From Eledone cirrhosa (taxonomy: Eukaryota): 64,000 bases of DNA. Each line of letters starts with the position of its first letter. The first letter of the stretch is position 1. This document shows, piece by piece, positions 2,406 to 2,452 of this stretch. Made by a program: the position numbers and the translations under genes. The notes under the pieces are model-generated. The model had not been told where the DNA came from, did not search any database, and was given only the letters and a program-made list of their open reading frames with translations. Location: NCBI GenBank assembly GCA_964016885.1, contig OZ024760.1:15438001-15502000 (forward strand), in the 5' to 3' direction.

Positions 2406-2452
2406 TGCTGACAATCGTTTCTTCCAAACTTTCGTTTGGATTCATCGGAGCA
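2406..2452 (-). ncRNA. Type I minimal hammerhead ribozyme motif (CCGAUGA variant), PLE-like element
   Basis: UGCU-CCGAUGA-A-UCCAAAC(GAAA)GUUUGGA-A-GAAAC-GAUU-GUC-AGCA, then AUAAAA; paralog at 45570. Confidence 0.75.

What the first reader, a model, noticed from the sequence alone, without database searches (positions are those of the whole stretch)
2406..2452. Covarying hammerhead with non-canonical CCGAUGA core
Two distant copies (2406 and 45570) share U4C and an A.A pair at the base of stem II, but differ by a compensatory change (CCAAAC/GUUUGG versus CCAGAC/GUCUGG) and in loop sequence. The flanks are diverged while the fold is kept, which suggests selection on RNA structure.
Basis: partly seen in the sequence, partly recalled or inferred. 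Interest (0 to 1): 0.7.

Follow-up and report, generated by a model that had tools for sequence, protein, structure and literature searches.

The report
Retrotransposon hammerhead with fixed U4C core
About 8,000 copies of one jumping-gene lineage in this animal genome carry a hammerhead RNA fold with one changed letter in its normally fixed core, kept across long-separated subfamilies, so it likely still cuts itself, probably slowly and in pairs; cutting itself is untested.

Summary
The motif is real and lies on the minus strand (2452-2406; 45616-45570). It is a minimal type I hammerhead in the terminal repeat of a Hydra-like Penelope retrotransposon: full copies show hammerhead, RT, GIY-YIG, hammerhead over about 4 kb. 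The CCGA core is a lineage trait: 8,106 exact matches against 372 with CUGA, and it holds in subfamilies whose synonymous sites are saturated. A sister family and all published Hydra hammerheads have U4. The A.A pair is not a trait: 314 of 8,106. Flanks are homologous, about 65-75% alike. The compensatory pair is real, but covariation alone is weak (about two events); core conservation is the stronger evidence. A palindromic helix III makes the double hammerhead the predicted best fold of two strands for both window copies. U4C is known as a sporadic, tolerated viroid variant; I found no report of it fixed in a retroelement, but could not read Lunse et al. Cleavage is untested. The window copies are truncated relics. 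Earlier scan notes hold Hydra hammerheads in this genome, none with U4C. New variant of a known kind.

The parts
2406..2452 (-). Minimal type I hammerhead, subfamily A: stem I 2452-2449 with 2409-2406; core C3-A9 2448-2442 (C4 at 2447); 10.1 at 2441 and 11.1 at 2422 (unpaired A.A in this copy); stem II 2440-2434 with 2429-2423; G12-A14 2421-2419
   Evidence: Read directly
2411..2418 (-). Self-complementary 8-nt helix III strand (with G.U pairs), predicted to pair between two RNA copies; predicted cut between 2410 and 2409 (after GUC)
   Evidence: Cofold minimum-energy structure is the double hammerhead, -27.6 versus -23.8 kcal/mol for two monomers; cut site inferred from hammerhead numbering
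2226..2891 (-). 5'-truncated 3' end (UTR and pseudo-LTR) of a Hydra-like Penelope element, subfamily A; no coding sequence left
   Evidence: About 88-91% identical to the full-length units in L061 and L066
2902..3209 (+). Inverted upstream piece of the same element (the inverted junction typical of Penelope insertions)
   Evidence: 90% identical to the L061 unit in the opposite orientation
1957..2224 (.). (TA)n-rich microsatellite at the element's 3' end; a second one at 3205-3823 bounds the other end (likely target site)
   Evidence: Tandem Repeats Finder
45570..45616 (-). Second hammerhead, subfamily B: C4 at 45611, perfect palindrome in helix III, predicted cut between 45574 and 45573
   Evidence: Read directly; cofold -32.0 versus -27.6 kcal/mol
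45533..45649 (-). Short pseudo-LTR fragment of subfamily B ending at a (TA)n run, just upstream of a filamin-repeat exon on the same strand
   Evidence: 93-94% identical to L069 and L070; Pfam Filamin on 45201-45605 and 44469-44798, minus strand

Best explanation
This is the terminal-repeat hammerhead of a Hydra-like Penelope retrotransposon lineage that has fixed C instead of U at core position 4 and lost the G-C pair at the base of stem II; it likely self-cleaves after GUC (GUA in other subfamilies), probably slowly and only as a dimer. Shown: the sequence, its place in both terminal repeats of elements that encode RT and GIY-YIG, the lineage-wide C4, the U4 sister family. Predicted: one strand folds into an inactive form; two copies (the two ends of a tandem transcript, or two transcripts) pair through the 8-nt palindrome and stem I to give a double hammerhead. 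Inferred from other Penelope elements: the element's protein may be needed for cutting, and the cut would trim unit-length RNA out of tandem or read-through transcripts. The two window copies are truncated relics; their differences were inherited from different source elements.
For: Two same-strand hammerheads 4.0-4.3 kb apart around RT and endonuclease frames in L061, L066, L167, L175. C4 8,106 versus U4 372 exact matches; U4 copies are spread over all subfamilies, and G5A (207) and C3U (75) give the decay background. Endonuclease-anchored copies, picked without the core: C4 in 30 of 33 that could be placed, of 70 examined. Core 11 of 11 invariant over nine consensuses; N7, loop 2, 10.1, 11.1 and H17 vary, H17 only C or A; the C4-G5 CpG is the only CpG kept in all nine. 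dS between subfamilies A and B not computable (saturated), dN 0.15; the 17-row clade has support 97/96 and the U4 family lies outside it. Of 9 pair-state changes in stems, 7 keep pairing and 2 are full swaps; palindrome centres AAUU, GAUU, AGUU, AGCU all stay self-complementary. Double hammerhead is the cofold minimum in 5 of 8 representatives, both window copies among them. U4C lowers activity in vitro but allows viroid infection (PMC3088659, passage citing Ambros and Flores) and recurs in another viroid-like RNA (PMC9608096).
Against: No cleavage or expression data (no RNA run listed). Two departures from consensus at once; in a type III hammerhead mutants of the CUGA turn had low activity (PMC9901934). 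Covariation statistics weak. Predicted active fraction near zero for representatives C, C2, H and D2, where stem II dimerises instead. Two loci carry G5A in both terminal repeats (L170, L175), and 4 of 24 copies of one small group carry G5A, so a damaged core may not block copying. In a Poseidon element, hammerhead mutants did not affect insertion in vitro and no reads ended at the cut site (PMC11167929). Most loci were found by a pattern or query containing the core, which inflates the invariance figure.
Confidence: 0.65

Rival explanations
1. The fold is kept but no longer cuts: it works as a dimerisation or protein-binding structure that brings two element RNAs or the two ends of one RNA together for reverse transcription.
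For: U4C plus loss of G10.1-C11.1; G5A in both repeats of L170 and L175; hammerhead cleavage was dispensable for insertion in vitro in a Poseidon element; stems and palindrome are conserved.
Against: The catalytic G8 and G12, A13, A14, A15.1, U16.1 are invariant and H17 is never G across nine subfamilies, the pattern expected for catalysis; a pyrimidine at 4 is the tolerated change.
Confidence: 0.2
2. C4 was favoured because it weakens a misfold in which a CUGA core would pair with the UCAG around the cut site, so it trades chemistry for folding (compatible with the best explanation; it addresses why C4).
For: With U4 the monomer minimum of the GUC-type copies becomes a 7-pair core/cut-site helix; predicted active dimer fraction is clearly higher with C4 in A3, F and D, slightly higher in the window copies and B.
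Against: The effect is under twofold for the window copies, absent or reversed in G, E, E2, and depends on flank length; GUA subfamilies keep C4 without the perfect misfold; the U4 sister has a similar predicted misfold.
Confidence: 0.2
3. No selection: C4 arose once by drift and the likeness of copies is shared ancestry of a repeat family.
For: All copies descend from one source; covariation is about two events; flanks are also 65-75% alike.
Against: C4 sits in a CpG that decays after insertion (372 and 207 versus 75) yet is kept in all nine source lineages across saturated dS.
Confidence: 0.07
4. The two window copies were kept by the host as regulatory RNA in a filamin-like gene.
For: Copy 45570 lies on the same strand just upstream of a filamin-repeat exon; the two palindromes could pair with each other (by eye).
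Against: Both are ordinary members of families of thousands, as diverged from their relatives as other copies; no transcript links them.
Confidence: 0.03

Closest known systems
Hammerheads of Hydra-clade Penelope-like elements (Craig et al. 2021, PMC8557442; passages and supplementary files S1, S2 and parts of S4/S7 seen)
   Same: Type I, near the 3' end, short stem I, palindromic helix III of 7-9 nt, often a mismatch at 10.1/11.1 (U.U in many rows); host protein with DKT, CxCx5C, CxxC and CxH; (TA)n targets.
   Different: Every core listed in file S2 begins CUGA; here CCGA. Unit length 4.0-4.3 kb with a 1.2-1.6 kb 3' UTR, against mostly under 3 kb. Hydra-1_Obim has another hammerhead sequence.
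Minimal hammerheads of metazoan Penelope elements (Cervera and de la Pena 2014, PMC4209133; parts 1-2 of 4 of the text, supplement part 1 and a text search seen)
   Same: Long stem II, short stem I, palindromic helix III, predicted dimer, opposite-strand pairs a few hundred bases apart, low expected activity.
   Different: Consensus CUGANGAH with G10.1-C11.1; the core variant described is U3-A8. A text search of the supplement found CCGA twice, neither in a core; drawn structures and one file were not searchable.
U4C hammerheads of peach latent mosaic viroid and CtaHVd-LR1 (Ambros and Flores 1998, not held, seen only as cited in PMC3088659 and PMC9608096)
   Same: The same CUGA to CCGA change, reported as still self-cleaving and infectious.
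   Different: Sporadic variants in monomeric, tertiary-stabilised viroid ribozymes; here fixed in a whole retrotransposon lineage, in a minimal dimer-type ribozyme without G10.1-C11.1.
Protein-assisted hammerhead of the Anolis Poseidon element PAc (Frangieh et al. 2024, PMC11167929; passages seen)
   Same: Penelope terminal-repeat hammerhead; a model for how a weak ribozyme is made to cut.
   Different: Other clade; the ribozyme overlaps the ORF start; core mutants tested were C3 and G8, not position 4.

Membership tests
Hammerhead ribozyme, type I | Three-way junction with stems I, II, III and the ends in stem I | tested here: met
   Stem I 4 bp, stem II 7 bp, helix III 2 bp in cis or 8 bp in trans
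Hammerhead ribozyme, type I | Core C3, G5, A6, G8, A9, G12, A13, A14, A15.1-U16.1, H17 not G | tested here: met
   Invariant in nine subfamily consensuses; H17 C or A; 30-33 of 33 at each core position in endonuclease-anchored copies
Hammerhead ribozyme, type I | U4 of the CUGA turn | tested here: not met
   C4 in 8,106 versus U4 in 372 matches; a tolerated natural variant by PMC3088659 and PMC9608096
Hammerhead ribozyme, type I | G10.1-C11.1 pair (usual, not absolute) | tested here: not met
   U.A, C.A, A.G, C.U, A.A
Hammerhead ribozyme, type I | Self-cleavage 3' of position 17 | not testable with these tools
   No RNA run listed
Rfam hammerhead families | Covariance-model match | tested here: not met
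   No hammerhead family in 2300-2600 at E up to 10 (2 unrelated weak matches) or among the 150 listed of 665 window matches
Penelope-like elements (EN+) | RT and C-terminal GIY-YIG between direct pseudo-LTRs holding a hammerhead; inverted 5' pieces | tested here: met
   L061, L066, L167, L175; GIY-YIG weak in Pfam (E 0.0025, below cut-off); RT by YRDD and by-eye likeness to published Hydra RTs, no Pfam or PDB hit
Hydra clade | DKT motif; CxCx5C linker; CxxC and CxH round the catalytic E and N; no CCHH | tested here: met
   HADKTNN, NCNCRTNRTC, CNLC, CQH read by eye in frames printed; features
Hydra clade | N-terminal RWK motif | tested here: inconclusive
   RWR seen in the U4 sister L262 and in L261, L064; the N-terminus of the C4 lineage was not recovered as an open frame
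Hydra clade | Insertion into (TA)n | tested here: met
   Both window copies abut (TA)n
Hydra clade | Placement with published Hydra proteins in an RT tree | not tested
   Trees held only sequences of this genome

The most novel reading that the evidence does not exclude
A whole retrotransposon lineage has been selected for a non-canonical CCGA hammerhead core: C4 is better than U4 in its natural setting, because it blocks a misfold or detunes cutting so that it happens only in the dimer or with the element's own protein. With its U4 sister family in the same genome this would be a natural paired test of what Penelope hammerheads are for.
Probability: 0.25. Interest if true: 0.68.

Novelty: new variant of a known kind. 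Interest (0 to 1): 0.45.

Why it matters
Hammerhead searches fix CUGANGA, so this family (at least 8,100 copies) is invisible to them and to Rfam. If it cuts, U4C is not only a sporadic viroid mutation but a stable evolutionary state, and descriptors should allow CYGA and a free 10.1/11.1. The role of Penelope hammerheads is open (they are weak, and dispensable in one in-vitro assay). A lineage that kept a detuned core over saturated synonymous distance, beside a young U4 sister with an intact 844-residue frame (L262), offers matched material for asking whether fast cutting, slow cutting or only the fold is selected.

Tried and rejected
Rfam scans gave no hammerhead. Generic repeat finding was swamped by microsatellites. 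The look-up of sequencing runs: no RNA holder listed; three contig sets of one sample of unrecorded kind were laid: they cannot show RNA ends and were not used as evidence on expression; at 2441 they mostly show letters other than the window's. Flank-only clustering was disturbed by alignment offsets; its flank distances were dropped in favour. A constrained dimer partition function crashed and was replaced by suboptimal sampling. A first reading of the neighbouring RT as Naiad was dropped: the endonuclease is C-terminal and the motif is DKT. Pfam and PDB did not recognise the RT; the protein atlas did not answer. The idea of a G5A sublineage is unresolved: 4 of 24 copies, and one inverted pair differs at that site. 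Lunse et al. (PMC5785218) and Ambros and Flores (PMC147498) are not held; bioRxiv supplements were closed. Literature searches for a CCGA or U4C core in retroelements; none found.

Full report
Observation. The motif is on the minus strand. Read 2452 to 2406 it gives stem I (UGCU with AGCA), a CCGAUGA core, one A, a 7-bp stem II closed by GAAA, one A, GAA, the 8-mer ACGAUUGU and C17. The copy at 45616-45570 differs at 7 of 47 letters: the A-U to G-C swap in stem II, four loop letters and one palindrome letter. A descriptor run on 200 Markov-shuffled windows gave no CCGA hit with stems this long; folding z-scores are -2.3 and -2.5. Rfam does not recognise it.

Host element. The genome (G000, 3.0 Gb) holds thousands of relatives (2,119 and 1,763 first-look candidates, 40 scored each). 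Wider stretches show two same-strand hammerheads 4.0-4.3 kb apart with RT and endonuclease frames between them (L061, L066, L167, L175), and many inverted pairs. The protein has DKT, YRDD, a CxCx5C linker, a C-terminal GIY-YIG and CxxC and CxH motifs, which match the description of the Hydra clade of Penelope-like elements (Craig et al., passages) and by eye its published RT alignment. Pfam supports GIY-YIG only weakly and misses the RT. Window copy 1 is a truncated 3' end (2226-2891) with an inverted piece (2902-3209) between TA microsatellites; copy 2 is a 117-base fragment (45533-45649).

Position 4. One 35-place pattern gave 8,106 exact matches with CCGA and 372 with CUGA; controls 0. The U4 copies listed are spread over all subfamilies. 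G5A, the other outcome of CpG decay, has 207, and C3U, a non-CpG transition, 75. So most U4 copies look like decay, though the 1.8-fold excess over G5A leaves room for some U4 sources. To avoid choosing by the core I took 70 loci found by the endonuclease (the top 30 of 150 listed; 40 that I picked of 150). In 11 no 3' flank was found, 26 could not be placed and 33 could: position 4 was C in 30, U in 2, A in 1. A related young family (L262; RT 67% and endonuclease 53% identical) has CUGA in 30 of 30 loci, and every Hydra core in Craig's file S2 begins CUGA. In an endonuclease tree of 20 rows the 17 rows of this lineage group at 97/96 with L262 outside (midpoint root, two rows without a located hammerhead, one row with U4 in both copies). 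C4 is therefore most likely derived and lineage-wide.

Selection. Between subfamilies A (2406) and B (45570) synonymous distance in the endonuclease is saturated while dN is 0.15. Over nine subfamily consensuses (167 copies) 11 of 11 core positions are invariant, 0 of 10 free positions (N7, 10.1, 11.1, loop 2, H17, ends), 19 of 28 stem positions and 31 of 87 nearby flank positions; Fisher p is 4e-5 but inflated because most loci were found through the core. The C4-G5 CpG is the only CpG in all nine. Of nine pair-state changes, seven keep pairing and two break a terminal pair; two are full swaps (stem II in B and F; the palindrome centre in D). On 15 representative copies the covariation score is 0.156 against 0.131 +/- 0.009 (6 of 500 shuffles), while counts of double changes are not significant (293 and 132 of 500). 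A 24-copy group appears to complete an A-U, G.U, G-C path in stem II.

The A.A claim. A.A occurs in 314 of 8,106 matches. Subfamily majorities are U.A, C.A, C.U or A.G; the sister has G.U. The real feature is the loss of G10.1-C11.1, which has precedent: U.U in many Hydra rows and in Perreault et al. (passage).

Mechanism. Helix III has only two pairs in cis. The monomer minimum is an inactive fold; for two strands the unconstrained minimum is the double hammerhead in 5 of 8 representatives, both window copies included, within 0.8 kcal/mol in two more, and clearly not in subfamily C. All four common palindrome centres stay self-complementary; only 2 of 12 single changes of AAUU would, and both occur; one small subfamily (H) breaks the centre. 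This is the dimer design described for Penelope hammerheads, with low activity in vitro (Cervera and de la Pena, parts 1-2; review passages PMC6765202). In a Poseidon element the ribozyme cut only with the element's protein, and cutting was not needed for insertion in vitro (passages). I infer slow, dimer-dependent, possibly protein-assisted cleavage that trims element RNA from tandem transcripts. Against it: low activity of CUGA-turn mutants in a type III ribozyme (passages), G5A in both ends of L170 and L175, near-zero predicted active fraction for 4 of 14 representatives, and no RNA data. A folding advantage of C4 over U4 is predicted for some subfamilies but is small or reversed in others.

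Novelty. U4C is known as a tolerated variant in two viroid-type RNAs (the original paper not held). Searches and the readable supplements of Cervera 2014 and Craig 2021 showed no retroelement with a CCGA core. Lunse et al., the largest survey of Penelope hammerhead variants (from recall and citation), could not be read and may hold such cores. Earlier scan notes: none by sequence or by 'U4C'; notes on other Hydra hammerheads of this genome exist. Verdict: a real, selected, lineage-wide core variant of a known ribozyme in a known kind of retroelement; new variant, interest 0.45.

Noticed in passing
window 5692+, 5865+, 14847+, 60401+, 15223-, 49625-, 54703- (also 50655+, 53044+, 52913-, 56917-, 57606+ with looser rules): At least seven more minimal type I hammerheads with canonical CUGA cores and palindromic helix III from other repeat families; shuffled windows give 0.03 hits on average.
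   Followed up: partly
L262:1548-6763 (G000:C1:331460000-331467100): Full-length young Hydra-like element with an open 844-residue frame and a U4 hammerhead at both ends; 40 of 40 scored matches were 100% identical over 181 nt. Closest U4 relative found.
   Followed up: yes
L261, L200; fragments at window 38264-38462, 39834-40032, 45991-46128, 51145-51377: A second very young Hydra-like family (784-residue frame, tandem period about 3.54 kb). By eye its 3' end holds a hammerhead with the U3-A8 core, a long stem II and a stable helix III (output); my pattern check did not capture it, so this is unconfirmed. An earlier scan note describes such a motif.
   Followed up: partly
window 45201-45605 and 44469-44798, minus strand: Two exons that together encode a filamin repeat (Pfam); hammerhead copy 45570 lies about 100 bases upstream of the first, on the same strand.
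   Followed up: partly
   Followed up: no
window 2453-2460 minus strand (subfamily A): A near-duplicate of the 5' strand of stem I lies just upstream and can pair with the 3' strand instead, giving an inactive register in the predicted fold.
   Followed up: no
L170, L175, L169, L179, L151: Paired terminal repeats of one insertion often share the same core change (G5A or U4), suggesting that the change was in the template and that many source copies were active.
   Followed up: partly
window 30945-31111 and 55544-55699: Long near-perfect inverted repeats round a (TA)n centre (back-to-back repeat ends); Rfam microRNA hits there are below threshold.
   Followed up: no
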